A DNA stretch of 64,000 nucleotides, from contig JACPHB010000006.1 of NCBI GenBank assembly GCA_016188835.1, forward strand, positions 1,877 through 65,876. Direction: 5' to 3'. How positions within the stretch are numbered: the first letter of the stretch is position 1; each line of letters begins with the position of its first letter. A program made the translations under genes and the position numbers. Shown piece by piece: positions 37,928 through 61,153 of this stretch. The notes beneath the pieces were generated by a model. That model saw only the letters and a program-made list of their open reading frames with translations, did not search any database and had not been told where the DNA came from. The stretch comes from Parcubacteria group bacterium. GTDB lineage: Bacteria; Patescibacteriota; Minisyncoccia; UBA10092.

Positions 37928-37949
37928 CAAATATGTTAAAATAAAATGT

Positions 37950-40662: not shown

Positions 40663-40755
40663 AACCAAGTAAAATTTTTAAAATTGTAGGCGGGGTCGTG
40701 CCGTTCGCCGAAGGCGAATGGGGCTACGACAATTTTAAAAATTTTACTTGGTTTT
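40661..40755. terminator. long palindromic terminator-like element, copy 2: perfect 27-bp IR arms (aaaaccaagtaaaatttttaaaattgt) around the core aggcggggtcgtgccgTTCGCCgaagGGCGAAtggggctacg; the right arm is the 3' end of rplT
   Basis: Perfect inverted repeat; shared core with 21336-21400 and 52598-52638; lies between the convergent MGMT and rplT genes. Confidence 0.65.
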
Positions 40756-41814: not shown

Positions 41815-42016
41815 ATAGAATATTTTGATTAAATTTAATATGCTGAATATTAATTGGTTTCTATAAAAAAGTCAAACATTTGAGAGATTTTTGTTGTGCC
41901 CCTCGACTATCGCTCAGGGCACTCGTCTCAAAACAAAAACCAGAAACAAGTTTCTGGTTTTTGTTTTCGCTGTGGTTTACCACGAGCGAACATTGCCAAA
42001 AGCAATGTGAGTCGAG

Positions 42017-44584: not shown

Positions 44585-47500
44585 ATGGAATTATTTTCTC
44601 CGAAAACTGAAGAAAAGATTTTGGATTTTTGGCAAAAAAATCAAATTTTTGAGAAATTAAGACAAAAAATCAGAGGCCAAAAACACTGGTCTTTTTTGGA
44701 TGGGCCGATTACCGCTAACAATCCCATGGGCGTTCATCACGCGTGGGGCCGGACTTATAAAGACCTATTTCAGAGATATAAAGCGATGAGAGGGTTTGAC
44801 CAGAGATTTCAAAACGGTTTTGACGCTCAAGGTCTTTGGGTGGAAGTAGAGGTGGAAAAAGAACTGGGTTTTAAATCCAAAAAAGACATTGAGAAGTATG
44901 GAATTGCCAAATTTGTTGAAAAATGCAAAGAGCGCGTAAGAAAATATTCCGAAATCCAAACGAATCAATCGATCAGATTAGGCCAATGGATGGACTGGAA
45001 AAACAGTTATTACACGATGTCTAATGAAAATAATATCGCCATCTGGCACTTTCTAAAAAAATGCCGGGAAAAAGGATTGCTTTATAAAGGACACGATGTT
45101 GTCCCCTGGTGTTGGCGTTGCGGTACGGCTATTTCCCAACATGAAATATTAACCGAAGATTACAAAGAAGTTACCCACGACTCGGTTTATATAGAATATC
45201 CCATTGTTGGAAACCGAGCTTCAAACATTTTCAATAAAAAAAATACCTATCTTTTAGTTTGGACCACAACTCCTTGGACTCTTCTCGGCAATGCGGCGAT
45301 AGCTATTGACCCAGAAAAGATTTATGCGGAAGCGACGGGGGAAATTAAAGGCAATTCGTATTATCTTATAAAAACTGCGGCGGAAAAATTAAACCTCAAA
45401 ATTATCAGAACGTTTAAGGGAAAGGAGTTAGTCGGTTTAATTTATAAATCGCCGTTTGATAATTTGCCGACTGTTAAAAAAACTTTATCAGGGTTTGTCC
45501 ATAAAGTTGTTGCTACTGATTCTCGCATTTTACCGGTTAGCGAGGAAGAAGGAACAGGGTTAGTTCATATAGCGCCCGGCCAAGGTGTTGAAGATTATCG
45601 ATTGGCCAAAAAATTAAAAATTCCTGCGGTTAATTTAATTGACGATGCGGCAGTTTACTTAAAAGACCTTGGACAATTCAGCGGCAAAAATGCGAAAGAA
45701 CATCCGGAAATAATTATCAATTATTTAAAAACTGCGGATTTTCTTTTTGACGCTCCAAAATATACCCACCGCTATCCCATCTGTTGGAGGTGTAAAACCG
45801 AGTTGGTATGGAAAATTGCCGACGAGTGGTATATATCAATGGATAAATTGAGGAAGCCATTAATGGAAATAGCCAAAAAAATAAAATGGATTCCTTCTTT
45901 TGGTTTAGGAAGAGAGATCGATTGGCTGAAAAATATGTCCGACTGGCTGATTTCAAAGAAAAGATATTGGGGGCTGGCGCTGCCTATTTTTGAGTGCCGA
46001 TGCGGGAACTTTGAAGTTGTCGGTTCACTTGCCGATTTTGACAAATATTCACTAAGAAAACCAAATCATTACATATTATTGCGCCACGGCGAAGCGGAAA
46101 ACAACCGTCTTAAAATCACCTCTTCTTATCCAGAGAAGGAAAAATACCCCTTAACAATAAAAGGTATTGGAGAAATTGAAAAACTTATTCCATGGTTTAA
46201 GAAAAAAAGAGTTGATTTGGTATTTTCTTCCGATATTTTACGGGCGCGGGAAACCGCTCAAATTATTGCCGGCGCTTTGGGGAAAACCGTAACTTATGAA
46301 AAGCGGCTTCGCGAGCATAACTTTGGCGATTACAACGGGCGTACTCATAAAGAATGGCATTCGCTTTTTGGCAGTAATAAAACGAATCAGTATGCAACTA
46401 AACCGCTGGGCGGCGAAAATCTGAAAGACGTTCAAAAAAGAATGACCAGTTTTCTCAAGGAATTGGATAAAAAATACGAAGGCAAAACAATTTTAATTGT
46501 AAGCCATGCCAATCCAATAGTGGCGGCCGCCAGCGCCTATAATGGTTACAAAAATGAAGAAACATTTGAAAAATTTAATATTGACGAAACTACCGGTTCT
46601 GTCGTTGAAATATATGGCCATAACTGGCCATATAATAATGACGGCGATTTGGATTTGCACCGGCCCTACGTTGATGAAATCAGAATCAAATGTTCTAAAT
46701 GTGGCAAAATGGTCTCTCGTGTTTTAGATGTCGGCAATCCTTGGCTAGATGCCGGAATTGTGCCTTATTCAACCATAGGATACTTTGAGGAGCACGTAAA
46801 ACTGCCTGACGGCAGTAACGTGCCAGGTAAAAAATTTTGGCGCAAGTGGTTTCCCGCCGAGCTTGTTTGTGAGTCATTTCCCGGCCAGTTTAAAAATTGG
46901 TTTTATTCTTTGATTGTAATGAGCGCGGTTTTAGAAAAAGTTCCGCCAATGAAAACGGTTTTTGGTTATGCTTCGGTTCGAGACGACAAAGGTGAAGAGA
47001 TGCACAAATCAAAGGGGAATGCCATTTGGTTTGACGAAGCGGCGGAAAAAATAGGAGTTGACGTGATGCGCTGGATGTATGTTAAACAGAATCCGGCCGA
47101 TAATTTAAAATTCGGATATGCGCCGGCTAAAGAGCACGAAAGAAAACTAATGAATCTTTGGAACAGTTTCACTTTTTTTAAAACTTATGCTTCGCATAAA
47201 CCAAGCTCCAAGCTCTCCTTCGACAAGCTCAGGATCCCGAGCGGCGTCGAGGGACAAGCTCCAAGCTCTTTATTAGACCAGTGGATTTTGTCGCGTCTTA
47301 ATAATCTTATAGAAAAAGTCACCAAAGATTTGGATAAATATGATTCTGCTTCTGCCAGTAGAGCGATTGAAGAGTTTTTTATAGAAGATCTTTCTTTGTG
47401 GCATATCCGCCGTTCGCGGGTAAGGTTTCAAATGCCGAAATCAGAAAAAGAAAAACAAGAAGCTGTCGAAATGCTTTATCTGGTATTATTTAGTTTATCA

Positions 47501-48163
47501 AAACTTATTGCTCCATTTCTGCCGTTTTTATCTGAGGAAATTTACTTATACTTAACCCGCTTCGCTAAAGCTCCAGCGAGGCGAGAAGACAAAACAATGC
47601 CGGATTCGGTGCATCTCTGCGACTGGCCGAAATCCGACAAAAAATTTATCAATCAGAAATTGGAAGAACAAATGGATTTAGTTAGGGAGATGGCCGCCAA
47701 AGGGTTGGCGCTTCGAGCGGAGGCGGGAATTAAAGTGAGGCAACCGCTCGCTTCGCTCCAATTTCCAATTTCTAATTTTAAATTTTCAAAAAATAAAGAA
47801 CTTTTGGAGTTGATTAAAGACGAGGTAAACGTGAAAAAAATTATTTTTGGCAATAAGTTTAAATTGGACGCAAAAATCACACCAGAATTAAAAGAAGAGG
47901 GAATTATAAGGGATTTGGCGCGGCAAATTCAGGAAATGAGGCGTGACGGGGGATTGGTGCCGAAAGATTTTATAAAAATTTATTTTAAAATTAACGATGT
48001 CGAATTGGAAAACACTGTTAAAAAACGGCAAAAAAATCTCATGATTAACGTAGGCGCAAAAACCATTGAACTTATTGACGTCGCAAAAGAAGGTCTTTTA
48101 ATCGACCGGCACTTTGAACGCGGCGGGGAAGATGTGTGGATAGGATTTGAAAAAATAAAATGA
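44585..48163 (+). CDS. ileS: isoleucyl-tRNA synthetase (type 2) with an inserted histidine-phosphatase (PGAM-like) domain of about 200 aa between the Zn-ribbon and the LHRPYVD motif
   Basis: HIGH-type P..HHAWG, CP1 editing TTTPWTL, KMSKS as EMHKSKGN; the insert about 46050-46650 has the RHG catalytic motif LLRHGEAENN and SHANPIV (histidine phosphatase branch 1). Confidence 0.9.
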   Translation: MELFSPKTEEKILDFWQKNQIFEKLRQKIRGQKHWSFLDGPITANNPMGVHHAWGRTYKDLFQRYKAMRGFDQRFQNGFDAQGLWVEVEVEKELGFKSKKDIEKYGIAKFVEKCKERVRKYSEIQTNQSIRLGQWMDWKNSYYTMSNENNIAIWHFLKKCREKGLLYKGHDVVPWCWRCGTAISQHEILTEDYKEVTHDSVYIEYPIVGNRASNIFNKKNTYLLVWTTTPWTLLGNAAIAIDPEKIYAEATGEIKGNSYYLIKTAAEKLNLKIIRTFKGKELVGLIYKSPFDNLPTVKKTLSGFVHKVVATDSRILPVSEEEGTGLVHIAPGQGVEDYRLAKKLKIPAVNLIDDAAVYLKDLGQFSGKNAKEHPEIIINYLKTADFLFDAPKYTHRYPICWRCKTELVWKIADEWYISMDKLRKPLMEIAKKIKWIPSFGLGREIDWLKNMSDWLISKKRYWGLALPIFECRCGNFEVVGSLADFDKYSLRKPNHYILLRHGEAENNRLKITSSYPEKEKYPLTIKGIGEIEKLIPWFKKKRVDLVFSSDILRARETAQIIAGALGKTVTYEKRLREHNFGDYNGRTHKEWHSLFGSNKTNQYATKPLGGENLKDVQKRMTSFLKELDKKYEGKTILIVSHANPIVAAASAYNGYKNEETFEKFNIDETTGSVVEIYGHNWPYNNDGDLDLHRPYVDEIRIKCSKCGKMVSRVLDVGNPWLDAGIVPYSTIGYFEEHVKLPDGSNVPGKKFWRKWFPAELVCESFPGQFKNWFYSLIVMSAVLEKVPPMKTVFGYASVRDDKGEEMHKSKGNAIWFDEAAEKIGVDVMRWMYVKQNPADNLKFGYAPAKEHERKLMNLWNSFTFFKTYASHKPSSKLSFDKLRIPSGVEGQAPSSLLDQWILSRLNNLIEKVTKDLDKYDSASASRAIEEFFIEDLSLWHIRRSRVRFQMPKSEKEKQEAVEMLYLVLFSLSKLIAPFLPFLSEEIYLYLTRFAKAPARREDKTMPDSVHLCDWPKSDKKFINQKLEEQMDLVREMAAKGLALRAEAGIKVRQPLASLQFPISNFKFSKNKELLELIKDEVNVKKIIFGNKFKLDAKITPELKEEGIIRDLARQIQEMRRDGGLVPKDFIKIYFKINDVELENTVKKRQKNLMINVGAKTIELIDVAKEGLLIDRHFERGGEDVWIGFEKIK

Positions 48164-48642
48164 ATTATTATCAAACTAAAGCCATAGTTTTGAAAAGAGA
48201 AGACATTTTTGAGGCCGATCGCATTTACAATTTATATACTGAAGAATTTGGAAAAGTTAGGGCGATTGCCGGCAGTGTTCGTAAAATCAATGCCAAACTT
48301 TCCGGACACTTAGAACCGTTTAATATTATTTGGGTTGAACTGGCGACCAAAAAAAACGGCGATTTATTTATTACCACCGCTTTGTCTTTTAAAAAACTTT
48401 TAAGTCATAATATTTTGCCTGCTCAAACCGCTCTTTTTGCCAAAATGGCAGATTTTTCCTGTTTAATGCTAAAAGGTCCGCAAAAAGACGAAATGTTATG
48501 GAGTTATATTTTAGAAAGTTTTGTAAAAGCCAGTATAGTTGGAACGGACACTGATAAATTTTTAGGCGCTTATAAAACCGGCTTCATTAAAATAATGGGA
48601 TTTGGGGATAATTTAGAAGAGGCCTTATGGTATAATTATTGA
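48160..48642 (+). CDS. recO: DNA repair protein RecO (short form, OB-fold N-domain plus helical domain, no zinc finger)
   Basis: KAIVLKREDIFEADRIYNLYTEEFGKVRAIAGSVRKINAKLSGHLEPFN matches the RecO N-terminal domain. Confidence 0.6.
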   Translation: MNYYQTKAIVLKREDIFEADRIYNLYTEEFGKVRAIAGSVRKINAKLSGHLEPFNIIWVELATKKNGDLFITTALSFKKLLSHNILPAQTALFAKMADFSCLMLKGPQKDEMLWSYILESFVKASIVGTDTDKFLGAYKTGFIKIMGFGDNLEEALWYNY

Positions 48643-50429
48643 CAATGATTCAAATTCCAACACCTACGACGTCGCCGAAATTTTCCGGCCCGTCGTTGCC
48701 TCAAGCAGTTCGTTTTTTTAGTCCCCGGCAAAAAAAAATCCTGATTATCGCCAGTATCATTTTTCTTATAGTTGTTATTTTAAGTGGCATCGGTTTTTAT
48801 TTTTGGCTGACCTCGTTTAAAAAATCACGGGTTGATTTTAATATTTCTGGACCGACTCAAGCAGCCAGCGGAGAGCAAATTACCTATCAAATTTCTTATT
48901 GGAATAACACCAATCAAATTCTTCAAAACGCCAATTTAACAGTTCGTTATCCGCAAGAAGCGGTGGTTGCCGGTGGCAAGATTATTCAAAATGTTGATTT
49001 GGGCAATATCGGTATTGGCGGTGGCGGTAAAATCGAAGTTAATTTGGCTTTTGTTGGTTCGGATAAAAGTATCCAGAAACTTCAAGCAGTTTTAAGTTAT
49101 AAACCGCAAAATACCGTCTCAACTTTTGAAAATGAGGCCGTTAAAGAAGTGGCTATAAATGGTTCGGCGTTGACCGTTGATTTTAAAGCGCCGGAAACTG
49201 TTTTGCCGAACATTAGAAATGTTTATATAATCCATTATAAAAACAATACTGAAGAAGTTTTAAAGAACGTTTCAATTGAAGCAAGCTATCCGCAAGATTT
49301 CAATTTTGTGTCTTCGGATCGTGTGCCGGCAAAAAGCAATAATGTTTGGAATTTAGGCGATTTAAATCCCAATGAAGAAGGTAATATCACTGTTTTGGGA
49401 ATTTTAAGAAATACCGAAAGCGCTAACTTCGAATTGGCCATCGGCATTCGGGAAAGTGATAAATTTTTTAAGTTTAGTCGCAGTTCGGCTCAAATCAATT
49501 TAACTGCTTCGCCCATTGCTGTAGACATATCGGTAAATAATCAGTCAAGCATCACTATTAATCCGGGCGATTTTCTGCAATTTAAAATCAGCTACAAAAA
49601 TAATACCAGTATTACCTTGTCCGATATTGTTTTAAAGGCCAAGCTCGACGGTTTAATGTATGATTTTTCTTCCCTTAAGACCAAGGGTTTTTACAATGGT
49701 TCGGATAATGCCATTACTTGGAATGCCGGAAATACGGCAGAATTTAAGAATTTAGAACCAGCCGCTACGGGTGAGGTGGAATTTCAAATCACTGTTAAAC
49801 CGCAATATATTATTAGAACTTTCAGGGACAAGAATTTTTTGCTTCAGGTTTTAGCGACAATGGAAACGCCGACCGTACCGCCATCTTTAGCGGTTAAGTT
49901 GCTTTCGGTTTCAAGCGATTTAGCTTTGAAAGTTAATACTAAAGCGGAACTTAAAACCAAAGGTTATTATTATGATACGGTTATTAAAAATTCCGGGCCT
50001 TTACCGCCGAAGGTGAGTAAAACCACCACTTACACTATTCATTGGCAGGTTGCCAATTATTCTAATGATCTTGATAAAGTTATTGTCAAAACAGTTTTAC
50101 CGGAAGGCGTCAGTTGGCAGAGTAAAAAAGCCGGCGCCGGCGCCGCCACCTTAGAATACAACGATCGAACTAGCGAACTTACCTGGAACATCGGTAAATT
50201 GCCGGCTGGAACCGGACTACTGCTTGATCCGTATGAAGTGATTTTTCAAGTGGCTTTAACGCCTTCAATAAAAAATGTAAACACTATTATGCCGGTTATA
50301 AGCGATTCAAATTTAACCGCCGAGGACATTTTTACCGGTATCGGTGTCACAGCATCAGCGCCGGCGCTAAAAACCGATATGCCGGACGACCTCGGTGTCG
50401 GTTTTACTAAAAGCCGCATCCAACCTTGA
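48639..50429 (+). CDS. large membrane-anchored surface protein with repeated beta-rich (DUF11-like) domains, hypothetical
   Basis: N-terminal TM; N/T/S-rich repetitive beta pattern. Confidence 0.45.
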   Translation: MTMIQIPTPTTSPKFSGPSLPQAVRFFSPRQKKILIIASIIFLIVVILSGIGFYFWLTSFKKSRVDFNISGPTQAASGEQITYQISYWNNTNQILQNANLTVRYPQEAVVAGGKIIQNVDLGNIGIGGGGKIEVNLAFVGSDKSIQKLQAVLSYKPQNTVSTFENEAVKEVAINGSALTVDFKAPETVLPNIRNVYIIHYKNNTEEVLKNVSIEASYPQDFNFVSSDRVPAKSNNVWNLGDLNPNEEGNITVLGILRNTESANFELAIGIRESDKFFKFSRSSAQINLTASPIAVDISVNNQSSITINPGDFLQFKISYKNNTSITLSDIVLKAKLDGLMYDFSSLKTKGFYNGSDNAITWNAGNTAEFKNLEPAATGEVEFQITVKPQYIIRTFRDKNFLLQVLATMETPTVPPSLAVKLLSVSSDLALKVNTKAELKTKGYYYDTVIKNSGPLPPKVSKTTTYTIHWQVANYSNDLDKVIVKTVLPEGVSWQSKKAGAGAATLEYNDRTSELTWNIGKLPAGTGLLLDPYEVIFQVALTPSIKNVNTIMPVISDSNLTAEDIFTGIGVTASAPALKTDMPDDLGVGFTKSRIQP

Positions 50430-50667
50430 TTGGTTTTCATTTTATAATTTATAAAAATTTTATAAATTATAAAATGATAATAAAAAATGATGTCAAAATT
50501 TATTTCATCCTCAATTCCTTGCTATAGTTAGGAATTGAGGATATTACTATATTAGTAATACATTAACGATGAAAATATGATTATTGACAAAAACACGCCC
50601 ATTATTTAATGTATAGAGAAGATAGCATTGTACTTTTATAGTATTATCCAAGGCAAGGAGGGCTATA

Positions 50668-51150
50668 ATGTTGAAATCGGTTCTTTTGGGTTTTACTGCT
50701 TTGCTTCTCGTTGTTAGTGTTCAATTGTCAGCAGTTTCTGCAAATCAATGTGTTCCTTTGTCTGATGGCGCTGTGCCAGATGAATCAAGTGCGGGTTGGA
50801 AAGAACGCGGGTTTTCGCGGGCCGATCTTGTGATTGATGTGGAAACGAAAAGTGGAGAGCGCGTAGTTGTTGGCAATCGAAAATATTATATCCACGACAA
50901 CGGAATGAAGCTTGGAGTTTATTCATATTTTGGTAAAGTAGGATTTAAGGCCTGGTCGTGCGACAAAAATCGCGATCCGGTTACGCGCGATGCTCAAGAT
51001 CATATGATTGCTGTATCGCAGTCAGATGGTAGTTGGCTAATCCGTCACGCCCAAAGTCCTGATGTAGAGGTAGCCTTCGGTGCTGACGGAAAGCCCATGG
51101 GTGTTACGATTACACTCAACGGGATTGAAACGTGGTTCAGTAATCAGTAA
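50668..51150 (+). CDS. secreted hypothetical protein (signal peptide), relatively GC-rich
   Basis: RBS aaggaggg 7 nt upstream; signal peptide ...SAVSA; about 48% GC against AT-rich flanks. Confidence 0.55.
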   Translation: MLKSVLLGFTALLLVVSVQLSAVSANQCVPLSDGAVPDESSAGWKERGFSRADLVIDVETKSGERVVVGNRKYYIHDNGMKLGVYSYFGKVGFKAWSCDKNRDPVTRDAQDHMIAVSQSDGSWLIRHAQSPDVEVAFGADGKPMGVTITLNGIETWFSNQ

Positions 51151-51165
51151 ATGGATATTGTTTGA

Positions 51166-51205
51166 TAAATAACCCTTATGAGGCTGGAAATCCCAGCCTA
51201 TTTTT
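51166..51205 (+). terminator. rho-independent terminator (aggctggg-aaat-cccagcct then T9)
   Basis: Perfect 8-bp stem followed by a T-run. Confidence 0.65.
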
Positions 51206-51246
51206 TTTGTTTATTGGTTAGAAATATGTTATTCTAACTTTTAGTT

Positions 51247-52599
51247 ATGGCGCAAACAAAAGATAAAAAAGAAAATTTAATGGAAAAAATTGTGTCGCTT
51301 TGTAAAAGGCGGGGGTTTATTTTTCCCGGCAGTGAAATTTACGGCGGTCTCTCCGGCACTTGGGATTATGGCCCGGTGGGCGCGCTTTTTAAAAAAAATA
51401 TTAAAGATTTGTGGTGGCGCGACACGGTTCAGTTGCGGGACGATGTTGTTGGCGTTGATGCGGCAATCATGATGAATCCGAAAGCTTGGGAGGCATCGGG
51501 TCATACCGAGGCTTTTAGCGATCCACTTGTGGAATGTAAAATTTGTCATGAAAGATTTCGCGCCGATAAGGAAATGGAAATTAAAAATCACGAAAAAACT
51601 CATAATAAAACAATAGAATGGACCAAATCAAAGAAATTTAATTTACTAGTTAAAGCTTACCTCGGTGTTTTAGAAGGCGAGGAGTCCCAAATTTATCTTC
51701 GCGGTGAAATAACTAATGGCGTTTCTGTAAATTTTAAAAACATCATTAATTCAACTCGGGTAAAAATTCCTTTCGGCGTCGCTCAAATCGGCAAGGCATT
51801 CAGAAATGAAATCACGCCGGGCAATTTTACTTTCCGATCGCGCGAATTTGAACAAATGGAAGTCCAATTTTACATTAAGCCCGAAGAAAAAGAAGGAAAA
51901 AAATGGTTTGACTACTGGAAAAAAAACCGGATGGATTGGTATCTTTCTTTGGGCATAAAAAAAGAAAACCTAAGATTCAGAGATCATGCCTTAAATGAGC
52001 GGGCTCATTATGCCCGAATGGCAACCGATATTGAATATAAAAGTCCTTGGGGCTGGCAGGAGTTTATGGGCATTCATCACCGGGGCGACTGGGATTTGAA
52101 AAGGCACCAGCAATTTTCTGGCGAAGACATGTCTTTTAGCGACCCCCAAACCGGTGAAAAATATTTGCTGTGGGATATAGAAACTTCTGCTGGAGTTGAC
52201 CGCTCGATCCTTTTTTTATTAATTGACGCTTATCGGGAGGAGGGCGGCAGAGTTTATCTTAAACTTCATCCGGCGCTTTCGCCCTATAAAGCGGCGGTTT
52301 TTCCGCTTTTAGCCAACAAGCCCGAACTTGTAAAATTGGCGAGAAAAATTTATGATGATTTGCGGCCGCAATTTATGACGGCTTGGGATGATCGTGGCAA
52401 CATCGGCAAGCGTTACTACAGCCAGGACGAATTGGGGACGCCGTTTTGCGTTACGGTTGATTTTGACTCCCTTGAAGACAAAAAAGTTACGGTTCGCGAC
52501 AGAGACACGATGAAACAGGAAAGAATCTCAATTTTAAAATTAGCGGAATATTTAAAAAATAAATTAAATGAAGATGAAAATAAAATTTTAAAATTGTAG
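51247..52599 (+). CDS. glyQS: glycyl-tRNA synthetase (alpha2 dimeric type)
   Basis: RRGFIFPGSEIYGGLSGTWDYGPVG N-terminus; class II motifs. Confidence 0.9.
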   Translation: MAQTKDKKENLMEKIVSLCKRRGFIFPGSEIYGGLSGTWDYGPVGALFKKNIKDLWWRDTVQLRDDVVGVDAAIMMNPKAWEASGHTEAFSDPLVECKICHERFRADKEMEIKNHEKTHNKTIEWTKSKKFNLLVKAYLGVLEGEESQIYLRGEITNGVSVNFKNIINSTRVKIPFGVAQIGKAFRNEITPGNFTFRSREFEQMEVQFYIKPEEKEGKKWFDYWKKNRMDWYLSLGIKKENLRFRDHALNERAHYARMATDIEYKSPWGWQEFMGIHHRGDWDLKRHQQFSGEDMSFSDPQTGEKYLLWDIETSAGVDRSILFLLIDAYREEGGRVYLKLHPALSPYKAAVFPLLANKPELVKLARKIYDDLRPQFMTAWDDRGNIGKRYYSQDELGTPFCVTVDFDSLEDKKVTVRDRDTMKQERISILKLAEYLKNKLNEDENKILKL

Positions 52600-52663
52600 G
52601 CGGGGTCGTGCCGTTCGCCGAAGGCGAATGGGGCTACGACAATTTTTAAATTTTATTTTCATC
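52573..52663. terminator. long palindromic terminator-like element, copy 3: the left arm is the last 8 codons of glyQS (gatgaaaataaaattttaaaattgt), the right arm is its inverted copy, around the same GC core
   Basis: Inverted repeat with one indel; core identical to copy 2. Confidence 0.65.
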
Positions 52664-52680
52664 TGAATTCGAACAAATCA

Positions 52681-53946
52681 ATGTACAAAAAAACCACATT
52701 ATCTAATGGCTTAAGAATTATTACTGTGCCGATGACCGATACCAAAACGGTTACAATTTTAGTGCTTGTGGCGACCGGTTCAAAATACGAAACCAAAGAA
52801 ATAAACGGAATTTCTCATTTTTTAGAGCATATGACTTTTAAAGGCACCGACAAGCGACCAACGCCCTTGGCCATTGTTGAACCTCTTGACAGGATTGGCA
52901 GCCAGTATAATGCGTTTACCGGACAGGAATATACTGGATACTACGCCAAAGCCAATGGCCGCCACTTAGATTTATTGCTCGACATTGTGTCCGATATTAC
53001 TTTGAATCCAAAGTTCAAACAGGAGGAAATCAATAAAGAAAGAGGAGTAATTATTGAAGAGATAAATATGTATGAAGACAATCCGGCTAGAAAACTTGGC
53101 GATATTTGGACGGATCTTTTATATGGCGATCAGCCGGCCGGTTGGGATACAGCAGGCAAAAAAGAGATTATTGCTAAACTAATGCGCGATGACTTTATAC
53201 GGTATCACAGCGATCATTACGTCGCGTCTAAAACTGTCGTGGTTGTTTCGGGGAATATTGAAAATGACAATATTGCTAGTAAAATAAAAAAACTTTTTAA
53301 GTCAATTAGTGACGCTAAAGGAAAAGAAAAAGTTCCGGTCAAAGAATTCCAAAAAAAGCCCGAAATTAAAGTTTTTTATAAAAAAACTGATCAAACCCAT
53401 ATTGCACTGGGAGTAAGATCTTACAATATTTTTGATAAGCGACGCTACGCGGCCGATGTTTTAGCAACGATTTTGGGCGGTGGCATGTCTTCGCGCCTAT
53501 TCCAATTGCTTCGAGACAAAATGGGCGCGGCTTATTACGTAAGAACGTTTTCCGACGAGTCAACTGATACAGGTAATCTGGCTACGTGGGCTGGAATAGA
53601 CAATCGGCGGACGGAAGAAATTATTAGAGCAATTCTTAAAGAATACAAAAAAATTAAGAGCGTTAAGGTGAGTTCGGCGGAACTGACTAAAGCGAAAGAA
53701 CACTTGGAAGGCAGTTTGATTTTAGGAATTGAAACATCCGACGAACTTGCCAGTTTTTACGGTTTTCAGGAAATTTTAAAAAGAGAAATTTTAAAACCGG
53801 AAGAGGTAATAAAAAAAATCAGAGCTGTTACCATTGATGATGTTTTAGCGATAGCTCAAAATGTTTTCAAGTCCGAAAAATTAAACCTGGCCATTATCGG
53901 TCCATATAAAGAAAAAAAACAATTTGAAAATTTACTAAGAATATAA
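52681..53946 (+). CDS. M16 family (insulinase-like) zinc peptidase
   Basis: Inverted zincin motif HFLEHMTFKGT; 421 aa. Confidence 0.8.
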   Translation: MYKKTTLSNGLRIITVPMTDTKTVTILVLVATGSKYETKEINGISHFLEHMTFKGTDKRPTPLAIVEPLDRIGSQYNAFTGQEYTGYYAKANGRHLDLLLDIVSDITLNPKFKQEEINKERGVIIEEINMYEDNPARKLGDIWTDLLYGDQPAGWDTAGKKEIIAKLMRDDFIRYHSDHYVASKTVVVVSGNIENDNIASKIKKLFKSISDAKGKEKVPVKEFQKKPEIKVFYKKTDQTHIALGVRSYNIFDKRRYAADVLATILGGGMSSRLFQLLRDKMGAAYYVRTFSDESTDTGNLATWAGIDNRRTEEIIRAILKEYKKIKSVKVSSAELTKAKEHLEGSLILGIETSDELASFYGFQEILKREILKPEEVIKKIRAVTIDDVLAIAQNVFKSEKLNLAIIGPYKEKKQFENLLRI

Positions 53947-53994
53947 TATAATAATAAAGAGAATAAAATTTAAAATAATTTCATTCTCTTTATT

Positions 53995-55074
53995 ATGGCT
54001 TTATCCAATCGAAAAATTATAGAAATTTCACCCAAAACAATGCTTTGGGCGCTTTTAATCGGCGCCTTGGTTGCTTTGCTTTTTATGGTTCGCGACATTA
54101 TAGCGGTTTTAATTTTTGCCATAATCATTTCTTCGGCGCTTGAACCATTGCTCAGGTATTCTGAAAACAAAAAAATTCCTCGCCTCTTATCTTTAATTGT
54201 AATTTATCTTTTATTTTTTGTATTTTTTGCGGCCCTTATTTACATTCTTTTGCCGCTTATGCTTGATCAGCTCCGTGATTTTTCAGAAAATTATCCGACT
54301 TATTTCGGCAAAATAGAAGAAGCTGCCGGCACTATAACATTTTTACCCGGACTTTCCGCGAATCTTCATGATTTATTAATTCAATTGACCGGTCAAATAC
54401 CAAGTTTTACTTCGCTGATTTCTTATGCTTCATCAATATTCGGCGGCGTTATTTCTTTTATAGTAGTTTTGGTGGTTTCTTTTTATCTGTCTTTATCCAA
54501 AGGCGCCTTAGATGATTTTTTAAGTTCGGTAATGCCGCCTCAATTTGAGGCCTATGCTCACGGCTTATGGATTCGGGCTCAGAAAAAAATGGGCCGTTGG
54601 CTTCAGGCCCAGTTGCTTCTAAGTATTTTTATGGCGGTAGTTGTCGGCTTTGGCCTTTGGATTTTAGGAGTAAAGTACGCTTTTTTGATCGCTATAGTTG
54701 TCGGCATGCTTGAGGTCGTTCCTTTTGTTGGGCCGATAGTATCCGGGGGCCTCGCGACCATTTTAGCGTTATCTCAATCAGCGGTTTTGGGACTTTGGAC
54801 TCTTATTTTTTTCATTGTGGTTCAGCAGCTGGAAAATCATATTTTAGTGCCTATTTTAATAAAAAAGCTGGTGGGACTTAATCCAGTGACGGTTATTCTT
54901 GCTATTTTAGTCGGTGCCAAATTGGGAGGAATTTTAGGAATTCTTTTAGCCGTGCCTTTAGCAGCGGTTGTTGACGAATTTTTTACCGATATAGCGAAAA
55001 AACGACCGGCCAACTCCCCGATTGGATTTACGTCTGCGCTCGCAGAAGATATAAAACCAGAAAAATTAATATAG
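53995..55074 (+). CDS. AI-2E family transporter (PerM/UPF0118)
   Basis: 8-TM topology with conserved GMLEVVPFVGPIVSG motif. Confidence 0.8.
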   Translation: MALSNRKIIEISPKTMLWALLIGALVALLFMVRDIIAVLIFAIIISSALEPLLRYSENKKIPRLLSLIVIYLLFFVFFAALIYILLPLMLDQLRDFSENYPTYFGKIEEAAGTITFLPGLSANLHDLLIQLTGQIPSFTSLISYASSIFGGVISFIVVLVVSFYLSLSKGALDDFLSSVMPPQFEAYAHGLWIRAQKKMGRWLQAQLLLSIFMAVVVGFGLWILGVKYAFLIAIVVGMLEVVPFVGPIVSGGLATILALSQSAVLGLWTLIFFIVVQQLENHILVPILIKKLVGLNPVTVILAILVGAKLGGILGILLAVPLAAVVDEFFTDIAKKRPANSPIGFTSALAEDIKPEKLI

Positions 55075-55502
55075 TGATAATAAAATTTCTACTTTTACTA
55101 TTTTTAGGAGGCCTTATTGTTCTGGTTTCTTTTTTATTTGGTTGGTATTCTGACTTAACATCACTACTCAGTTGGTGGGTAGCTAACAGTCTTCATTTTC
55201 TCGGCGGAATTTACGCTTTTTTCTTTGTTAAGTTTGTTTTTAACGCTACGCACAAGTATCACAAAACAGAAACCGCATTTTTAATGAAAATTATAATTTT
55301 TACCGGCGGCGCTTTAGTATTAGGAGTATTGTGGGAGTGGTATGAATTTATTTTTATTTATAATTATGGAAATGGAGTTTTTAGATTGCTTCCAAAAAGT
55401 ATCACCATTTATCATGACACCATGACCGATTTAATGTTTGATTTACTCGGTGCCGCATCAGTTGGAGTTTATTTAATTGTTAAAAATGGCAAAAACAAAT
55501 AA
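55074..55502 (+). CDS. small polytopic membrane protein, hypothetical
   Basis: 4 predicted TM helices; ORF track. Confidence 0.4.
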   Translation: MIIKFLLLLFLGGLIVLVSFLFGWYSDLTSLLSWWVANSLHFLGGIYAFFFVKFVFNATHKYHKTETAFLMKIIIFTGGALVLGVLWEWYEFIFIYNYGNGVFRLLPKSITIYHDTMTDLMFDLLGAASVGVYLIVKNGKNK

Positions 55503-57003
55503 AAAATTTTACGTAACAACTTCTATTCCATATGTTAACGCCGACCCTCATATTGGATTTGCCTTGGAAGCAATTCAGGCCGATGTTTTGGCGCGTTATC
55601 ACAGATTAAAGGGAGAGGATGTTTTCTTTCTTACGGGGACAGATGAACACGGCGTTAAAGTTGTAAGGGCGGCCGAAGCGGTTGGGGAAACCCCGAAAGA
55701 ATTTGTTGATGAAATTTCAGGGAAATTTAAGGCGCTCAAAAAAACACTGATTTTATCTTGGGATGATTTTATTAGAACTTCGGACCAAAAAAGGCACTGG
55801 CCCGGTGCCCAGAAATTATGGCTGAAACTTTATAATGCCGGTAAACTTTATAAGAAACCTTACAAAGGCCTTTATTGCATCGGGCATGAAGCATTTATTA
55901 CGGAAAAAGATTTGATAGACGGGAAATGTCGTGACCATCAAAAAGATCCGGAAGTCGTTGAAGAAGAGAATTGGTTTTTTAAATTATCTGAATATAGTAA
56001 TGATATAAAATCAAAAATTGAAAGCGGCGAATTAACAATAGTCCCAGAAGGACGCAAAAACGAAATTATTTCGCTTATTAACGAAGGACTTGAGGATGTC
56101 AGTTTTTCTCGTCCGGCAAAAGATTTAAGTTGGGGTATTCCGGTGCCAAACGATCCGAAACATACGATGTATGTTTGGTGCGACGCGCTTTCAAACTATA
56201 TTTCTGCTCTTGGCTATGGGAGTACTCAAAATATCGATATATCGAAATTTCAGAAATACTGGCCGGCCGATATTCATATTATCGGAAAAGATATTTTACG
56301 TTTCCATGCCGCCATCTGGCCTGGCATGCTTTTAGCGGCTGAATTACCTTTGCCGAAAACTATTTTTGTTCACGGATTTATAACGGTTGGCGGAGAAAAG
56401 ATGTCAAAAACAATAGGCAATGTCATTAACCCGGTGGAAATTGTTAATAAATATGGCGCCGATGCCTTGCGTTATTATCTTTTGTGGGATATTACACCCA
56501 CTGGCGATGGCGATTTTACTTATGAAAAATTTGAGGAAAGATATAACAGCGGCCTTGCTAATGGTATCGGCAATCTGGTGGCGCGCGTTGCGAAATTGGG
56601 CGAAACGATTTCTCCCATTGTCTATTCGGAAGATGATATCGCGGAGTGGAATAGGAATACCAAGAAAAATATCCATAATCTGTACGATAAGTTGGTTGAC
56701 GATATCAAACTCAATGAAGCATTGGCCGTGGCCTTTTCCCTTGTTTATTCCGCAGACAAATATAATGATATTGTAGGAAACATTAAAGGCGGAGATAAGT
56801 ATATTGATGAAACACAGCCATGGACTTTAAGGGGTGACGATTTGAAAAAAGTTATTATCAATGCCTCATTCTTAATCAATTCGTTTTCCGAGTTAATTGA
56901 GCCGTTTTTGCCAGAGACCGCGGGAAAAATTAGAGAGCAAATAAAATTTGTGGGGAACAAAATAGAAATCACAAAAGGTGATAATATTTTCCCGAGAAAA
57001 TGA
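55486..57003 (+). CDS. metG: methionyl-tRNA synthetase
   Basis: TTSIPYVNADPHIGF (HIGH), KMSKTIGNV (KMSKS). Confidence 0.9.
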   Translation: MAKTNKKFYVTTSIPYVNADPHIGFALEAIQADVLARYHRLKGEDVFFLTGTDEHGVKVVRAAEAVGETPKEFVDEISGKFKALKKTLILSWDDFIRTSDQKRHWPGAQKLWLKLYNAGKLYKKPYKGLYCIGHEAFITEKDLIDGKCRDHQKDPEVVEEENWFFKLSEYSNDIKSKIESGELTIVPEGRKNEIISLINEGLEDVSFSRPAKDLSWGIPVPNDPKHTMYVWCDALSNYISALGYGSTQNIDISKFQKYWPADIHIIGKDILRFHAAIWPGMLLAAELPLPKTIFVHGFITVGGEKMSKTIGNVINPVEIVNKYGADALRYYLLWDITPTGDGDFTYEKFEERYNSGLANGIGNLVARVAKLGETISPIVYSEDDIAEWNRNTKKNIHNLYDKLVDDIKLNEALAVAFSLVYSADKYNDIVGNIKGGDKYIDETQPWTLRGDDLKKVIINASFLINSFSELIEPFLPETAGKIREQIKFVGNKIEITKGDNIFPRK

Positions 57004-57791
57004 CATTATTCGATTCTCACTGCCATCTTCACTTTCGTCAGTTTGACAACGACCGCGAAGAAATTATAAAAAAACTTCGTGATTTTAATATTAAGATTAT
57101 AAATGTTGGAACTGATTTTAAAGAATCTGAAAAAGCTGTAGCGCTCGCTAAACAATACCCAGATTTAATGTGGGCATCGGTCGGGTTGCATCCAAATGAT
57201 AATTTGGAAGAAAATTTTGATATTAACAAATACAGAGAACTGGCAAAACTCCAAAATGTTGTCGCTATAGGTGAGTGCGGGCTGGATTATTTTCGTTCGC
57301 CAAGCGAAACAGAAATTAAAAGGCAAAAAGAGATTTTTGTTAAACAAATTGGATTGGCGAAAGAATTAAAAAAGCCATTGATTTTACACTGCAGGCCTCC
57401 TAAAGGAAGCCAAGATGCCTATGAAGACGCGATTGAGATTTTGAAATATGAAAATTTTAATATTTCAACCGGCAATGGAGTAGCTCATTTTTTTTCCGAT
57501 TTAAAGGAAACGGCCAAAAAATTTTTGGAATTAGGATTTTATATTTCTTTTGCCGGGCCAATAACGTTTGCGCCAGAATATAAAGAAATTGTGGAATTCG
57601 TCCCAATGAATAGGATTTTAATTGAAACCGACGCGCCGTTCGCGGCGCCGGCGCCCCATAGGGGCAGACGCAACGAACCGGCTTATGTTGAATTTGTGGC
57701 GCACAAAATCGCCGAATGGAAAAGATTAAGTATTGAAGAGGTGGCGGAACAAACTACAAAAAACACTTTGCGACTTTTTCAAATAAAATAA
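57000..57791 (+). CDS. tatD: TatD-family metal-dependent hydrolase (DNase)
   Basis: LFDSHCHL N-terminus, GECGLDY, ETDAPF motifs. Confidence 0.9.
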   Translation: MTLFDSHCHLHFRQFDNDREEIIKKLRDFNIKIINVGTDFKESEKAVALAKQYPDLMWASVGLHPNDNLEENFDINKYRELAKLQNVVAIGECGLDYFRSPSETEIKRQKEIFVKQIGLAKELKKPLILHCRPPKGSQDAYEDAIEILKYENFNISTGNGVAHFFSDLKETAKKFLELGFYISFAGPITFAPEYKEIVEFVPMNRILIETDAPFAAPAPHRGRRNEPAYVEFVAHKIAEWKRLSIEEVAEQTTKNTLRLFQIK

Positions 57792-57883
57792 ATTACGTAT
57801 TTAAAATCGATCACTTTTTTATACGTAATTCAAATACTGATTAATTATTGCCTTGAGCAATTTTTTTAGTTAAACTGAACAAT

Positions 57884-60373
57884 ATGTACGATGCTAAAAA
57901 AATAGAATCCAAATGGCAGAAAATCTGGGAAAAGGCGAAACTTTATAAGACGAAAGACAAAGTTGCTGGCAAAAAGAATTTTTATCATCTTGTAATGTTT
58001 CCATATCCGTCGGGCGATCTTCATATCGGGCACTGGTATAATTTCGCGCCCGCCGATGTTTACGCGCGTCTTAAGAGAATGCAAGGGTTTAACGTTTTAA
58101 GTCCAATCGGATTTGATGCTTTTGGCTTGCCGGCGGAAAATGCCGCTATAAAAAATAAAATTCATCCGAAAATTTGGACCTATAAAAATATCGATAAAAT
58201 GAGGCATCAGCTTAAGTCAATGGGCAATGTCTACGACTTTTCGCGCGAGGTAATTACTGCTGACTCGGAATACTACAAATGGACTCAATGGATGTTTTTA
58301 AAAATGTATGAAGCTGGCCTGGCTTATCGCAAGAAAGCTTTAGCTAATTGGTGCCCGAAAGATCAGGCGATTTTAGCCAACGAGCAGGTTATTGATGGCA
58401 AATGCTGGCGACATCCCGATACTCTGGTGATTCAAAAAGAAATTGAGCAATGGATGTTTAAAATTACCGATTACGCTGAAGATCTTATTGATGGTTTGGA
58501 GAAATTAAACTGGCCGGAACGCACGAAACTAATGCAAAAAAACTGGATAGGGAAATCTGTCGGCGCTATTGTTCAATTCAAAATACCAAATACTAAATAC
58601 CAAATACCGGTTTTCACTACTAGACCGGACACGCTTTTTGGTGCTACCTACTTAGTGCTTTCTCCGGAACATCCGCTTGTTGAAACAGTAATCGCAAAAG
58701 AACAAAAAGAAAAGGTTCGTCACTATATTACCAATGCACATTTAAAATCCGAACTTGAAAGAACTGTTTTGGAAAAAGAAAAAACCGGAATTTTCACTGG
58801 AGCTTTTGCTGTTAACCCCGTGAATGGAGAAAAAATTCCTATTTGGATTTCCGATTATGTTTTAATAAACTATGGCACGGGCGCCATTATGGCTGTGCCA
58901 GCGCACGATGAACGCGATTTTGAATTCGCTAAAAAATTCAATCTTTCAATAATTAAAGTGATTAATCCCGGCTGCGATTGGCCGGAAGACAAGCCCTACA
59001 CCGAAGGCGGGTTGATGGTTAATTCCGGAGAGTTTACCGGTCTTAATTCGGTTGATGGAAGAAAAAAAATTATCGAATGGCTAAAAATAAAAAGACTCGG
59101 CGATTTTTCTATTCAATATAAAATGCGCGACTGGATTATTTCCCGCCAAAGGTATTGGGGCGCGCCAATCCCGATAGTTTACTGTAAAAAATGCGGCATA
59201 ATACCTGTTTCAGAAAGCAAATTGCCGATTAAATTACCGCCACTTAAAAATTTTAAGCCTGTAGCTGGAGGGAAATCGCCGTTAGCTAGTGCAAAGTCAT
59301 TTATTAATGCCAAGTGTCCTAAGTGCAAAGGAAGAGCGGCGCGGGAAACCGACACGATGGACACGTTTGTTGATTCTTCGTGGTACTTTTTGCGCTACGC
59401 CGATCTGAAAAACAAAAAACAATTTGCTTCAAAAGACAAATTAAAGGCCTGGCTGCCGGTTGATATGTACGTCGGAGGCGCCGAGCATGCGGTTTTACAC
59501 CTCCTTTATTCAAGATTTTTTGTTAAAGCGTTAAAAAGCATGGGACACTTGGAATTTACTGAACCTTTTACGGCTTTGCGCCATCAGGGAATTATTTTAG
59601 GAAGCGACGGGCAGAAAATGAGTAAGTCCCGCGGTAATATCGTTGACCCGGACGAATTGGTTAAAAAATACGGCGCCGATACGATTAGAATGTATCTTTG
59701 TTTTATGGGCGAATACAGCCAGGGCGGACCGTGGAATTCCAAGGGAATTCTGGGAATTAAAAGATTTTTGGATAGAATCTATGCTAAATTTTTCTCCCTT
59801 CAGGAGATGTCCTACCCGCTTCGCCGAAGCTCCAGCGCGGCGAGCAGGGACACAATTTTGAAGTCCGAAGAAAAATTACAAAGATTATTGCACCAGACCA
59901 TTAAGAAAGTGGGGGATGATATTGAAAACCTTCGCTTTAACACAGCTATCAGCGCGCTGATGATTCTTTTTAACAGTATTGAAAAAGAAAATTTTTCAAA
60001 AGACGAAGCAAAAATATTTCTTAAACTCTTATCACCATTTGCGCCGCATCTTACTGAAGAACTATGGCAAAGAATAGGCAATAACCCCGACGCTATTAAA
60101 GGTCGGGGCTACGACCAAGAGCGTCGGAGGAAATCCATTCATATAGAAACATGGCCGGAATACAATGCCAAGTTCATAGAAGAGGAAGAGTATGAACTTG
60201 TTATCCAAATCAATGGCAAAATGCGCGACAAAATAAAGATTTCAAAAAAGTTAGAGCGACCGGAAGTAGAAAAACTAATTTTAGAACGAGAAATAGTTAA
60301 AAAATATCTCGATGGTAAATTTCCACAGAAAATAATTTTTATTCCTAACAGGTTAATAAACCTAGTGGTTTAA
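57884..60373 (+). CDS. leuS: leucyl-tRNA synthetase
   Basis: [15 protein letters not shown] (HIGH), KMSKSRGN (KMSKS), editing domain. Confidence 0.9.
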
Positions 60374-60412
60374 AGTTAGTATTCATTATTAATATTTAAC
60401 ATATCTTTAATG

Positions 60413-60444
60413 TATAATAAATTAGCTATAGCATAATTATTATA
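60413..60444 (+). repeat. 32-bp direct repeat tataataaattagctatagcataattattata (copy 1; copy 2 at 61033-61064) flanking the PaaX-like gene
   Basis: Exact 32-bp match at both positions; the central gctatagc is palindromic. Confidence 0.8.
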
Positions 60445-60448
60445 TAAT

Positions 60449-61003: not shown

Positions 61004-61032
61004 AAATCCAGTATTTGAGGTTTTAAAATTTC

Positions 61033-61064
61033 TATAATAAATTAGCTATAGCATAATTATTATA
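61033..61064 (+). repeat. second copy of the 32-bp direct repeat
   Basis: Identical to 60413-60444. Confidence 0.8.
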
Positions 61065-61153
61065 CATTGTGTTAATTTATTAATATAAAAATGTAATATC
61101 ATTGATAGATGGTGTTACTATCTTAATTATAATAATGTTTAAATATTAGAAAT

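What the first reader, a model, noticed from the sequence alone, without database searches (positions are those of the whole stretch)
47556..59848. Family C: CCGCTTCGC(C/T)(G/A)AAGCTCCAGCG(C/A)GGCGAG in ileS and leuS reading frames and in the non-coding island
Copies at 47556-47588 inside ileS (encoding RFAKAPARRED) and 59815-59848 inside leuS (encoding [12 protein letters not shown]). A related copy sits in the ORF-free island at about 35600-35650 (gattcgccgctggagcgaag). The element is GC-rich and partly self-complementary. It shares TTCGCCGAAG with the terminator core of the previous finding. The evidence is the same element in two different aaRS genes giving different peptides.
Basis: seen in the sequence. 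Interest (0 to 1): 0.5.

Follow-up and report, generated by a model that had tools for sequence, protein, structure and literature searches.

The report
Tiny hairpin element inserted in genes
Two essential enzyme genes of this uncultured Patescibacteria genome each carry an exact 30-base GC-rich hairpin repeat spliced in frame, and the same 30-mer turns up in over a hundred other genomes from several phyla, often inside housekeeping genes, without any known name or mobilising enzyme.

Summary
The core observation is confirmed. A 30-nt unit, CCCGCTTCGCYRAAGCTCCAGCGMGGCGAG, lies at 47556-47585 in ileS and at 59815-59844 in leuS. The two copies match at 27 of 30 positions, with none expected by chance. 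They sit in different codon phases.

Deleting exactly these 30 nt restores the sequence found in the closest orthologues, with no target duplication.

The claimed third copy in the island near 35620, and the link to the terminator family, are at chance level.

The element belongs to a sharply defined 30-nt imperfect hairpin family. Most are Patescibacteria of all classes, plus WOR-3, Elusimicrobia, proteobacterial MAGs and cultured Chelativorans.

About half the copies lie inside long ORFs, in all six frames. Hosts include IleRS, ArgRS, ProRS, GatB, LigA, a Mur ligase and FtsZ.

Copies are often nested in loops of other mini-hairpins, including the leuS copy, and in one MAG in each other.

I found no match in Rfam, viral contigs, phages, plasmids or the paper library.

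The most likely reading is a trans-mobilised miniature hairpin element. The mobilisation mechanism is inferred, not shown.

The parts
47556..47585 (+). Family C unit in ileS, CCCGCTTCGCTAAAGCTCCAGCGAGGCGAG. It starts at codon position 2 and encodes (T)RFAKAPARR(E).
   Evidence: It is absent from orthologues P0122, P0124, P0126 and P0128. It is present in P0125 and P0127 at the same site.
59815..59844 (+). Family C unit in leuS, CCCGCTTCGCCGAAGCTCCAGCGCGGCGAG. It starts at codon position 3 and encodes (Y)[10 protein letters not shown]. It carries the rare A24>C change, which weakens the stem.
   Evidence: It is absent from all 120 LeuRS homologues at this site. The empty site is seen in L005 and L007. 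In 121 family copies, position 24 is A in 117 and C in none.
59790..59814 (+). Left part of the older double-hairpin mini-element that hosts the leuS copy (TTTTCTCCCTTCAGGAGATGTCCTA).
   Evidence: The same unit..TCTCCCTkCGG GAGATGTCCCGnAGGGACAnAAT, occurs in at least 55 unrelated metagenome contexts. The empty site folds as TGTCCC/GGGACA with z = -4.0.
59845..59859 (+). Right part of the same host mini-element (CAGGGACACAATTTT).
44585..48163 (+). ileS, the host gene (1192 aa). The unit lies in the loop before the SVHLxDWP motif of the anticodon-binding region.
   Evidence: Pfam. The solved IleRS 8c8u shows a gap at this position.
57884..60373 (+). leuS, the host gene (829 aa). The unit lies in the linker of variable length between the catalytic and anticodon-binding domains.
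   Evidence: Pfam, the alignment of 120 homologues, and the alignment to solved LeuRS 5ah5.

Best explanation
Both segments are copies of a 30-nt, GC-rich, imperfect-hairpin repeat. I read it as a non-autonomous miniature mobile element.

Shown:
- The unit has sharp ends (CCCG...GGCGAG) and a fixed length of 30 nt, which is 10 codons.
- It inserted without target-site duplication and without loss of target bases.
- The consensus with C at position 18 has no stop codon in any of the six frames.
- Copies therefore survive as 10-residue insertions in variable surface loops of essential proteins, as well as in intergenic hairpins.
- Presence at a given site is patchy among close relatives.
- Copies are preferentially preceded by Y-Y-g-R and followed by Y.
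- They are enriched in the loop or centre of other inverted repeats. The leuS copy sits in the loop of a TGTCC/GGACA hairpin that belongs to an older double-hairpin mini-element.
- In one MAG they are nested within each other at one fixed internal site.

Inferred:
- The unit is mobilised in trans as single-stranded DNA by a structure- and sequence-specific enzyme. The closest model is a Y1 HUH transposase of the IS200/IS605 or RAYT type, which leaves no duplication, excises precisely and needs single-stranded targets such as hairpin loops.
- No such enzyme was identified.
- In ileS and leuS the inserts are most likely simply translated and have no function of their own.
For: Exact filled and empty sites:
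- They differ by precisely 30 nt in both genes.

Family-wide properties:
- At least 119 stretches in species-representative genomes carry the pattern.
- The four bases 5' of the searched pattern (CCCG) are 93-98% conserved although the pattern did not require them. Conservation then drops abruptly on both sides.
- Arm-sharing variants with different loops are also 30 nt long.

Copies in genes:
- 58 of 122 copies lie in stop-to-stop ORFs of at least 150 aa, in all six frames.
- The one frame that has a stop in the T variant is used only twice, both times by the C variant.
- Pfam confirms hosts IleRS (twice), LigA, ArgRS, ProRS, GatB, a Mur ligase, FtsZ and a PNP fusion.
- A further copy sits in LeuRS of P0028, inside a different mini-element, after CCCCGA|.

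Target preference:
- The base before the unit is a purine in 109 of 121 copies. The base after is a pyrimidine in 105 of 121.
- Flanks form a perfect stem of at least 5 bp in 15% of copies, against 3.5% when flanks are re-paired among copies.
- Flank duplex energy is lower than at random adjacent sites, p = 6e-7.
- In reconstructed empty sites the junction falls in a hairpin loop in 29 of 102 cases, against 16-20% in controls.

Separate insertion events:
- L043 has a triple nest whose outer copy is the CTCCAG variant and whose inner copies are CTTCAG.

Gain and loss:
- The three element-bearing IleRS are not monophyletic in an NJ tree.
Against: - No transposase or other recurrent gene was found next to copies in 119 loci.
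- No longer element with the same ends was found in 0.83 Mb.
- Orientation relative to GC skew is only weakly biased, 54 to 35, p = 0.056.
- The hairpin-loop preference applies to only about a quarter of sites. The ileS target (TTAA|AAGA) is not a hairpin.
- The element's own fold is only modestly better than shuffles (z = -1.6).
- Copy number is low: 2 in this 64-kb window, and none beyond the ileS-site copies in about 125 kb of relatives' DNA.
- Near-identical 30-mers in distant phyla are hard to explain by an ordinary lineage-bound element, and no vehicle was found (0 hits in 2.9 million viral contigs; no significant plasmid or phage hits).
- The NJ tree has no support values, so a single gain followed by losses cannot be separated from repeated gains.
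Confidence: 0.6

Rival explanations
1. The spread needs no dedicated enzyme. The 30-mer is copied between palindromes by replication template switching, or by repair of cleaved hairpins (for example after SbcCD-type cleavage) using an ectopic hairpin as template.
For: Copies are enriched in the centres of other inverted repeats. No associated gene was found. Nesting occurs within related hairpin elements.
Against: The unit has the same sharp 30-nt ends whatever the host site. Host sites include ones with no homology or palindrome, such as ileS TTAA|AAGA. Flank bases show a sequence preference, with a purine before the unit in 90% of copies. Identical units occur in unrelated phyla.
Confidence: 0.17
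2. The 30-mer is a footprint, or a solo pair of ends, left by excision or internal deletion of a larger mobile element with arms CCCGCTTCGCC / GCGAGGCGAG.
For: The arms are more conserved than the loop, and several variants share the arms but have different 9-10-nt centres. Self-nesting occurs at one internal point.
Against: No case of the two arms separated by cargo was seen in 0.83 Mb around 119 copies. All variants keep a length of 30 nt. No matches were found in viral contigs, plasmids or phages.
Confidence: 0.08
3. The segment is a selected functional module, either a cis-acting RNA or DNA signal (pause site, protein-binding hairpin) or a useful peptide loop in the two synthetases.
For: The three ileS copies differ at only 1-3 of 30 positions, while the genes are about 80-82% identical in DNA. 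The sequence is conserved across phyla.
Against: Copies are read in all six frames and lie in both orientations relative to genes. They sit at different positions in different proteins. The leuS and P0127 copies carry stem-breaking changes. There is no Rfam match at the gathering threshold in the window, or at E<=1 in four loci. Closest orthologues lack the segment.
Confidence: 0.07
4. The match is a chance or compositional similarity, ancestral homology between two class Ia synthetases, or an assembly artefact.
For: IleRS and LeuRS are paralogues. GC-rich patches are common in this window (83 islands).
Against: Zero matches are expected by chance. The two copies are in different frames and at non-homologous positions. 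They are absent from close orthologues. The ileS copy recurs, with substitutions, in two independent assemblies (GCA_964373275, GCA_041643115). The family also occurs in a single-cell genome (L019) and in cultured Chelativorans (L013, L058).
Confidence: 0.01

Closest known systems
Rickettsia palindromic elements (RPE)
   Same: Both are palindromic repeats that insert in frame into protein-coding genes, including housekeeping genes. Both add a peptide segment without destroying the ORF, and both also occur between genes. This comparison rests on established knowledge. The MITE review PMC10969869 appeared in the search but was not read.
   Different: RPEs are about 100-150 bp and confined to Rickettsiales. 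This unit is 30 nt, GC-rich in AT-rich genomes, and found across Patescibacteria and several other phyla. No sequence relation was tested.
REP sequences and REPINs mobilised by RAYT (IS200/IS605-like Y1 transposases)
   Same: Both are imperfect palindromes of 20-40 bp, non-autonomous, and lack target duplications and classical terminal inverted repeats. A conserved flanking or terminal short motif is present in both. Other elements target them (PMC3733652 and PMC1525189, titles and abstracts seen).
   Different: REPs are extragenic, occur in tens to hundreds of copies per genome, are lineage-specific, and carry GTAG or CGTC tags. Here about half the copies are intragenic, copy number is low, the ends are CCCG...CGAG, and the same sequence occurs in many phyla. 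No RAYT was found nearby.
Mitochondrial GC clusters, double-hairpin elements and 'byp' elements of fungi
   Same: Both are short GC-rich hairpin elements in AT-rich genomes. Both insert into each other and into coding sequence, with patchy distribution among close relatives. An example is the yeast mitochondrial mobile GC-cluster family (PMC4478555, abstract seen). The rest of this comparison is from general knowledge.
   Different: Those elements are organellar and eukaryotic and unrelated in sequence. Byp elements are skipped by the ribosome, whereas here simple translation is the economical reading because the unit is 30 nt long and open in frame.
Classical bacterial MITEs (such as Correia and Nezha)
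   Same: Both are small, non-coding, dispersed elements that are sometimes co-transcribed or translated.
   Different: MITEs have terminal inverted repeats, target-site duplications and usually a parent IS. None of these was seen here.

Membership tests
Rickettsia palindromic elements | In-frame insertion into protein-coding genes that keeps the ORF intact | tested here: met
   Exactly 30 nt are added in ileS and leuS relative to orthologues. Other hosts were confirmed by Pfam.
Rickettsia palindromic elements | Length of about 100-150 bp with long palindromic arms | tested here: not met
   The unit is 30 nt with an 8-bp stem.
Rickettsia palindromic elements | Sequence similarity to RPE consensus families and restriction to Rickettsiales | not tested
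   No RPE library was available. The taxonomic range here is Patescibacteria and other phyla.
REP / REPIN (RAYT-associated) | Imperfect palindrome of 20-40 bp | tested here: met
   30 nt, with an 8-bp stem containing one G.T pair and a 10-nt loop.
REP / REPIN (RAYT-associated) | Conserved GTAG or CGTC tetranucleotide at one end | tested here: not met
   The ends are CCCG and CGAG. The flank consensus is Y-Y-g-R before the unit.
REP / REPIN (RAYT-associated) | Extragenic location and high copy number within a genome | tested here: not met
   58 of 122 copies lie in long ORFs. There are 2 copies in this 64-kb window. About 125 kb of relatives' DNA holds none beyond the two ileS-site copies.
REP / REPIN (RAYT-associated) | Cognate RAYT gene in the genome, typically flanked by the repeats | tested here: inconclusive
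   No recurrent transposase-like neighbour was found in 119 loci of up to 8 kb. Whole genomes were not examined.
IS200/IS605-derived non-autonomous elements | No target-site duplication, no terminal inverted repeats, subterminal hairpin | tested here: met
   The empty and filled sites differ by exactly the unit. The hairpin is shown.
IS200/IS605-derived non-autonomous elements | Insertion 3' of a fixed tetra- or pentanucleotide | tested here: inconclusive
   Only a loose motif was found: Y (75%), Y (81%), G (56%), R (90%) before the unit.
IS200/IS605-derived non-autonomous elements | Orientation bias relative to replication (lagging-strand template) | tested here: inconclusive
   54 to 35 with respect to local GC skew, p = 0.056, confounded with gene orientation.
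IS200/IS605-derived non-autonomous elements | Ends shared with a full-length IS that encodes TnpA | tested here: inconclusive
   None was seen in 0.83 Mb around copies. There were no hits in viral contigs, plasmids or phages.
Classical MITE | Target-site duplication and terminal inverted repeats | tested here: not met
   There is no duplication at either window site.
Translationally bypassed inserts (byp, T4 gene 60 type) | The insert is skipped by the ribosome rather than translated | not testable with these tools
   This needs proteomics. The unit is 30 nt long and open in the used frames, so bypass is not required.

The most novel reading that the evidence does not exclude
The 30-mer may be the smallest mobile DNA unit yet described. 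On this reading it is a single 30-nt hairpin that transposes as single-stranded DNA into hairpin loops and coding sequence, excises precisely, and is recognised by an enzyme conserved or exchanged across Patescibacteria, WOR-3, Elusimicrobia, Proteobacteria and possibly DPANN archaea. It would be one member of a wider, undescribed set of nested mini-hairpin elements that remodel surface loops of essential proteins in small-genome bacteria.
Probability: 0.25. Interest if true: 0.8.

Novelty: new variant of a known kind. Interest (0 to 1): 0.6.

Why it matters
- It would explain part of the unexplained length variation and odd low-complexity loops in Patescibacteria housekeeping proteins such as aaRS, FtsZ, LigA and GatB.
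- Such segments should be masked in phylogenomics and structure prediction.
- It would extend intragenic palindromic repeats, so far a curiosity of Rickettsia and of organelles, to a very large part of bacterial diversity.
- It poses a concrete question: what keeps a 30-nt sequence nearly identical across phyla, and what moves it?
- The exact consensus and the exact empty sites make this testable by phylogenetic profiling and by biochemistry.

Tried and rejected
- **Island 'third copy' (35620-35645).** Its local alignment score of 19 lies within the null range of 19-25, so I rejected it.
- **Relation to terminator-like family D2 through TTCGCCGAAG.** The score of 21 is also within the null range, so I rejected it.
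- **Known RNA family.** Rfam at the gathering threshold finds only tmRNA and tRNA-Arg in the window. An E<=1 scan of four loci shows nothing over the element.
- **Vehicles.** There were 0 matches in 2.9 million viral contigs. Only chance-level hits (E about 0.3-0.9) appeared in plasmids and phages.
- **Associated gene.** All-against-all clustering of 981 neighbouring ORFs gave only housekeeping families.
- **Longer parent element with the same ends.** None was found.
- **Replication-strand bias.** It is weak, p = 0.056.
- **CRISPR-like arrays.** No regular arrays were seen. Loci hold one or two copies, or nests.
- **Literature.** Six searches, by sequence strings, encoded peptides and concepts, found no description.
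- **Metagenome scan for filled or empty leuS alleles.** It found no second filled allele. Instead it revealed that the host site is itself a repeat family.
- **More copies in relatives.** A fuzzy search of about 125 kb of related Azambacteria-like DNA found none beyond the ileS-site copies in L001 and L002. That script also failed to list the window's own ileS copy, which one search confirms.
Full report
**1. The observation**

The reported pattern matches exactly twice, at 47557-47585 and 59816-59844 on the + strand. None is expected in dinucleotide shuffles, even with three mismatches allowed.

With the conserved leading C, the units are 47556-47585 (CCCGCTTCGCTAAAGCTCCAGCGAGGCGAG) and 59815-59844 (CCCGCTTCGCCGAAGCTCCAGCGCGGCGAG). 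They are 27/30 identical, and 67% and 77% GC in a window of about 39% GC.

The host ORFs are IleRS (44585-48163) and LeuRS (57884-60373) by Pfam. The unit starts at codon position 2 in ileS and position 3 in leuS, which gives TRFAKAPARR and [11 protein letters not shown].

The organism is an Azambacteria-like member of the Patescibacteria. The IleRS is identical to an NCBI MAG protein labelled Parcubacteria group, and its nearest named relatives are Candidatus Azambacteria.

The third copy claimed in the ORF-free island, and the similarity to the terminator-like repeat, are both within the score range of shuffled sequence.

**2. The segments are insertions, exactly 30 nt long**

- **LeuRS, protein level.** Among 120 LeuRS homologues, none has the segment. 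The closest (79% identity) read [18 protein letters not shown] where the window has [27 protein letters not shown].
- **IleRS, protein level.** Among 120 IleRS homologues, only P0125 and P0127 have the segment, at the same site. Closer relatives (P0122-P0124) lack it.
- **ileS, DNA level.** Deleting the 30-nt unit from ileS leaves TTATACTTAA|AAGACAAAACAATGCC. P0128 reads TTATACTTAAAAGATAAAGCAATGCC.
- **leuS, DNA level.** Deleting it from leuS leaves ATGTCCTA|CAGGGACACA, against ATGTCCCGCAGGGACACA and ATGTCCCATAGGGACATA in orthologues.

There is no target duplication and no loss of target bases.

Both sites fall in variable loops. In ileS, a solved IleRS (8c8u) has a gap at this position. In leuS, the site is the hypervariable linker before the anticodon-binding domain.

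In an NJ tree, the three IleRS that carry the unit are not monophyletic. This implies either repeated gain at the same nucleotide or precise loss. The tree has no support values.

**3. The family**

The record titles cover:
- all major Patescibacteria groups (Saccharibacteria, Microgenomates lineages, many Parcubacteria lineages);
- a WOR-3 MAG with at least six contigs;
- Elusimicrobia and Acidobacteriota MAGs;
- MAGs labelled Gamma-/Pseudomonadota and Bdellovibrionales;
- one Woesearchaeota contig;
- two cultured Chelativorans strains;
- a single-cell genome.

MAG labels were not verified independently. One 'Gammaproteobacteria' IleRS is only 33-35% identical to the Parcubacteria ones, so it is at least a distant organism.

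The consensus is CCCGCTTCGCC(A/G)AAGCT(T/C)CAGCGAGGCGAG. The four bases 5' of the searched pattern are 93-98% conserved although the pattern did not require them. Conservation then falls off sharply on both sides.

The unit folds as single-stranded DNA into an 8-bp stem with one G.T pair and a 10-nt loop. Variants with the same arms and different loops are also 30 nt long. Few diverged copies accompany the near-perfect ones in the 0.83 Mb examined.

**4. Where copies sit**

58 of 122 copies lie in stop-to-stop ORFs of at least 150 aa, in all six frames.

The variant with C at position 18 is open in all six frames. The T variant has one stop, and the frame affected is used only by C-variant copies.

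Pfam confirms the following hosts: two further IleRS at other positions, LigA, ArgRS, ProRS, GatB, a Mur ligase, FtsZ and a phosphorylase fusion.

**5. Target preference and nesting**

- **Flanking bases.** The base before the unit is a purine in 90% of copies. The two bases further upstream (positions -8 and -7 in the matrix) are mostly pyrimidines. The base after the unit is a pyrimidine in 87%.
- **Flank complementarity.** Flanks are more complementary than controls. A perfect stem of at least 5 bp occurs in 15% against 3.5%. Duplex energy gives p = 6e-7. The junction falls in a hairpin loop in 29 of 102 reconstructed sites, against 16-20% in controls.
- **Nesting in other mini-hairpins.** Many copies split other recognisable GC-rich mini-hairpins, such as cattcccgc|gaaagcgggaatcc and ctgcctgccgg|caggcagg.
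- **Self-nesting.** L043 holds three copies nested at one internal point. The outer copy is a different variant from the inner ones, which argues for separate events rather than slippage.
- **The leuS host site.** It is itself a member of a double-hairpin repeat family..TCTCCCTkCGGGAGATGTCCCGnAGGGACAnAAT, seen in at least 55 unrelated metagenome contexts. The empty site folds with z = -4.0.
- **A second LeuRS case.** In a related LeuRS (P0028), another Family C copy sits inside a different double-hairpin mini-element, after CCCCGA|.

**6. How it most likely works**

Shown:
- precise 30-nt insertion without duplication;
- sharp ends and a fixed length divisible by three;
- reading frames that are open;
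- patchy presence among relatives;
- a flank preference, and enrichment in hairpin loops.

Inferred:
- The unit is a non-autonomous element moved in trans.
- The features listed above resemble the single-stranded 'peel and paste' chemistry of IS200/IS605 and RAYT enzymes. In that chemistry hairpin loops would offer single-stranded targets, and the conserved G.T pair would mark one strand.

I found no enzyme, no parent element and no vehicle, and strand bias is weak. The mechanism therefore stays a hypothesis.

Rivals considered:
- Enzyme-free copying between palindromes is possible but fits the sharp ends and the non-palindromic ileS target poorly.
- A footprint of a larger element lacks any example of such an element.
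- A selected RNA or peptide function is contradicted by use of all six frames and both orientations, by stem-breaking changes, and by absence from close orthologues.
- Chance, paralogy and assembly artefact are excluded.

**7. Comparison with known systems, and novelty**

It works like Rickettsia palindromic elements (in-frame intragenic palindromes), like REP/RAYT repeats (short hairpins without duplications), and like mitochondrial GC clusters (nesting GC-rich hairpins in AT-rich genomes).

It is not a member of any of these:
- The length excludes RPE.
- The GTAG/CGTC tag, extragenic location and high copy number of REPs are not met.
- The duplications and terminal repeats of MITEs are absent.

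Rfam, viral, phage and plasmid collections and six literature searches gave no description. The library does not cover subscription journals fully, so prior description cannot be excluded.

I rate it a new variant of a known kind. Interest is moderate to high because of the cross-phylum identity of a 30-mer and its presence inside essential genes.

Noticed in passing
window 46073-46627 (IleRS aa 497-681): A complete histidine-phosphatase domain (His_Phos_1, E = 1e-39) is inserted inside IleRS. About 22 Azambacteria-like IleRS share it, as does the distant IleRS of L071. Relatives of about 960 aa lack it. Some LeuRS relatives carry a NUDIX (PF00293) or PF04266 domain instead.
   Followed up: partly
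window 45199-45230 (in ileS); also 20742-20773, 20954-20985, 31282-31313: This is a second hairpin repeat family, AATGTTGGAAACCGAGCTTCCAACATT. The ileS copy encodes VGNRASNIFNK and is present in only some close orthologues, so it looks like another in-frame mini-insertion.
   Followed up: partly
window 60090-60135 (in leuS); L248 around 5200: A double-hairpin mini-element (CCCCGAC..GTCGGGG / CTACGAC..GTCGGAG, encoding [19 protein letters not shown]) is absent from the closest LeuRS. In P0028 the homologous element carries its own Family C copy.
   Followed up: yes
window 59790-59814 and 59845-59859; metagenome loci L129-L246: The leuS sequence around the Family C copy belongs to a widespread double-hairpin repeat..TCTCCCTkCGGGAGATGTCCCGnAGGGACAnAAT, found in many unrelated groundwater contigs.
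   Followed up: partly
window 47224-47266 (in ileS): A GC-rich patch encoding FDKLRIPSGVEGQ lies at a site that is hypervariable in length among IleRS relatives. The motif ccttcga|caagctcagg also serves as a host for Family C copies in other genomes.
   Followed up: partly
window 21322-21394, 40672-40744, 52582-52654: A terminator-like repeat family, GTAGGCGGGGTCGTGCCGTTCGCCGAAGGCGAATGGGGCTAC, is flanked by perfect AT-rich inverted repeats of 26-31 nt.
   Followed up: no
window 21182-21237 and 35376-35431: A 56-nt segment is repeated at 96% identity. One copy lies at the 5' end of a minus-strand ORF and the other in the ORF-free island (35163-36028), which also holds several unrelated hairpins.
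   Followed up: no
window 24163-24228, 22348-22379, 10810-10843, 30326-30359: Further GC-rich mini-hairpin motifs, CTGCCTGCCGGTCAGGCAGG and GCTTGCCCTGAGCTTGTCGAAG types, lie inside ORFs.
   Followed up: no
window 60409-60447 and 61030-61068: 39-nt AT-rich repeats flank the 184-aa ORF 60449-61003, immediately downstream of leuS.
   Followed up: no
window 42014-42456 (-) and 37856-37928 (+): A tmRNA gene (tag AKTNLTPAFAFA) and a tRNA-Arg(CCG) gene are present.
   Followed up: no
window 1315-1512; 8127-8417 and 9087-9377: There is a 99-nt tandem repeat at 94% identity. There is also a 291-nt internal repeat at 75% identity within ORF 8043-9998.
   Followed up: no
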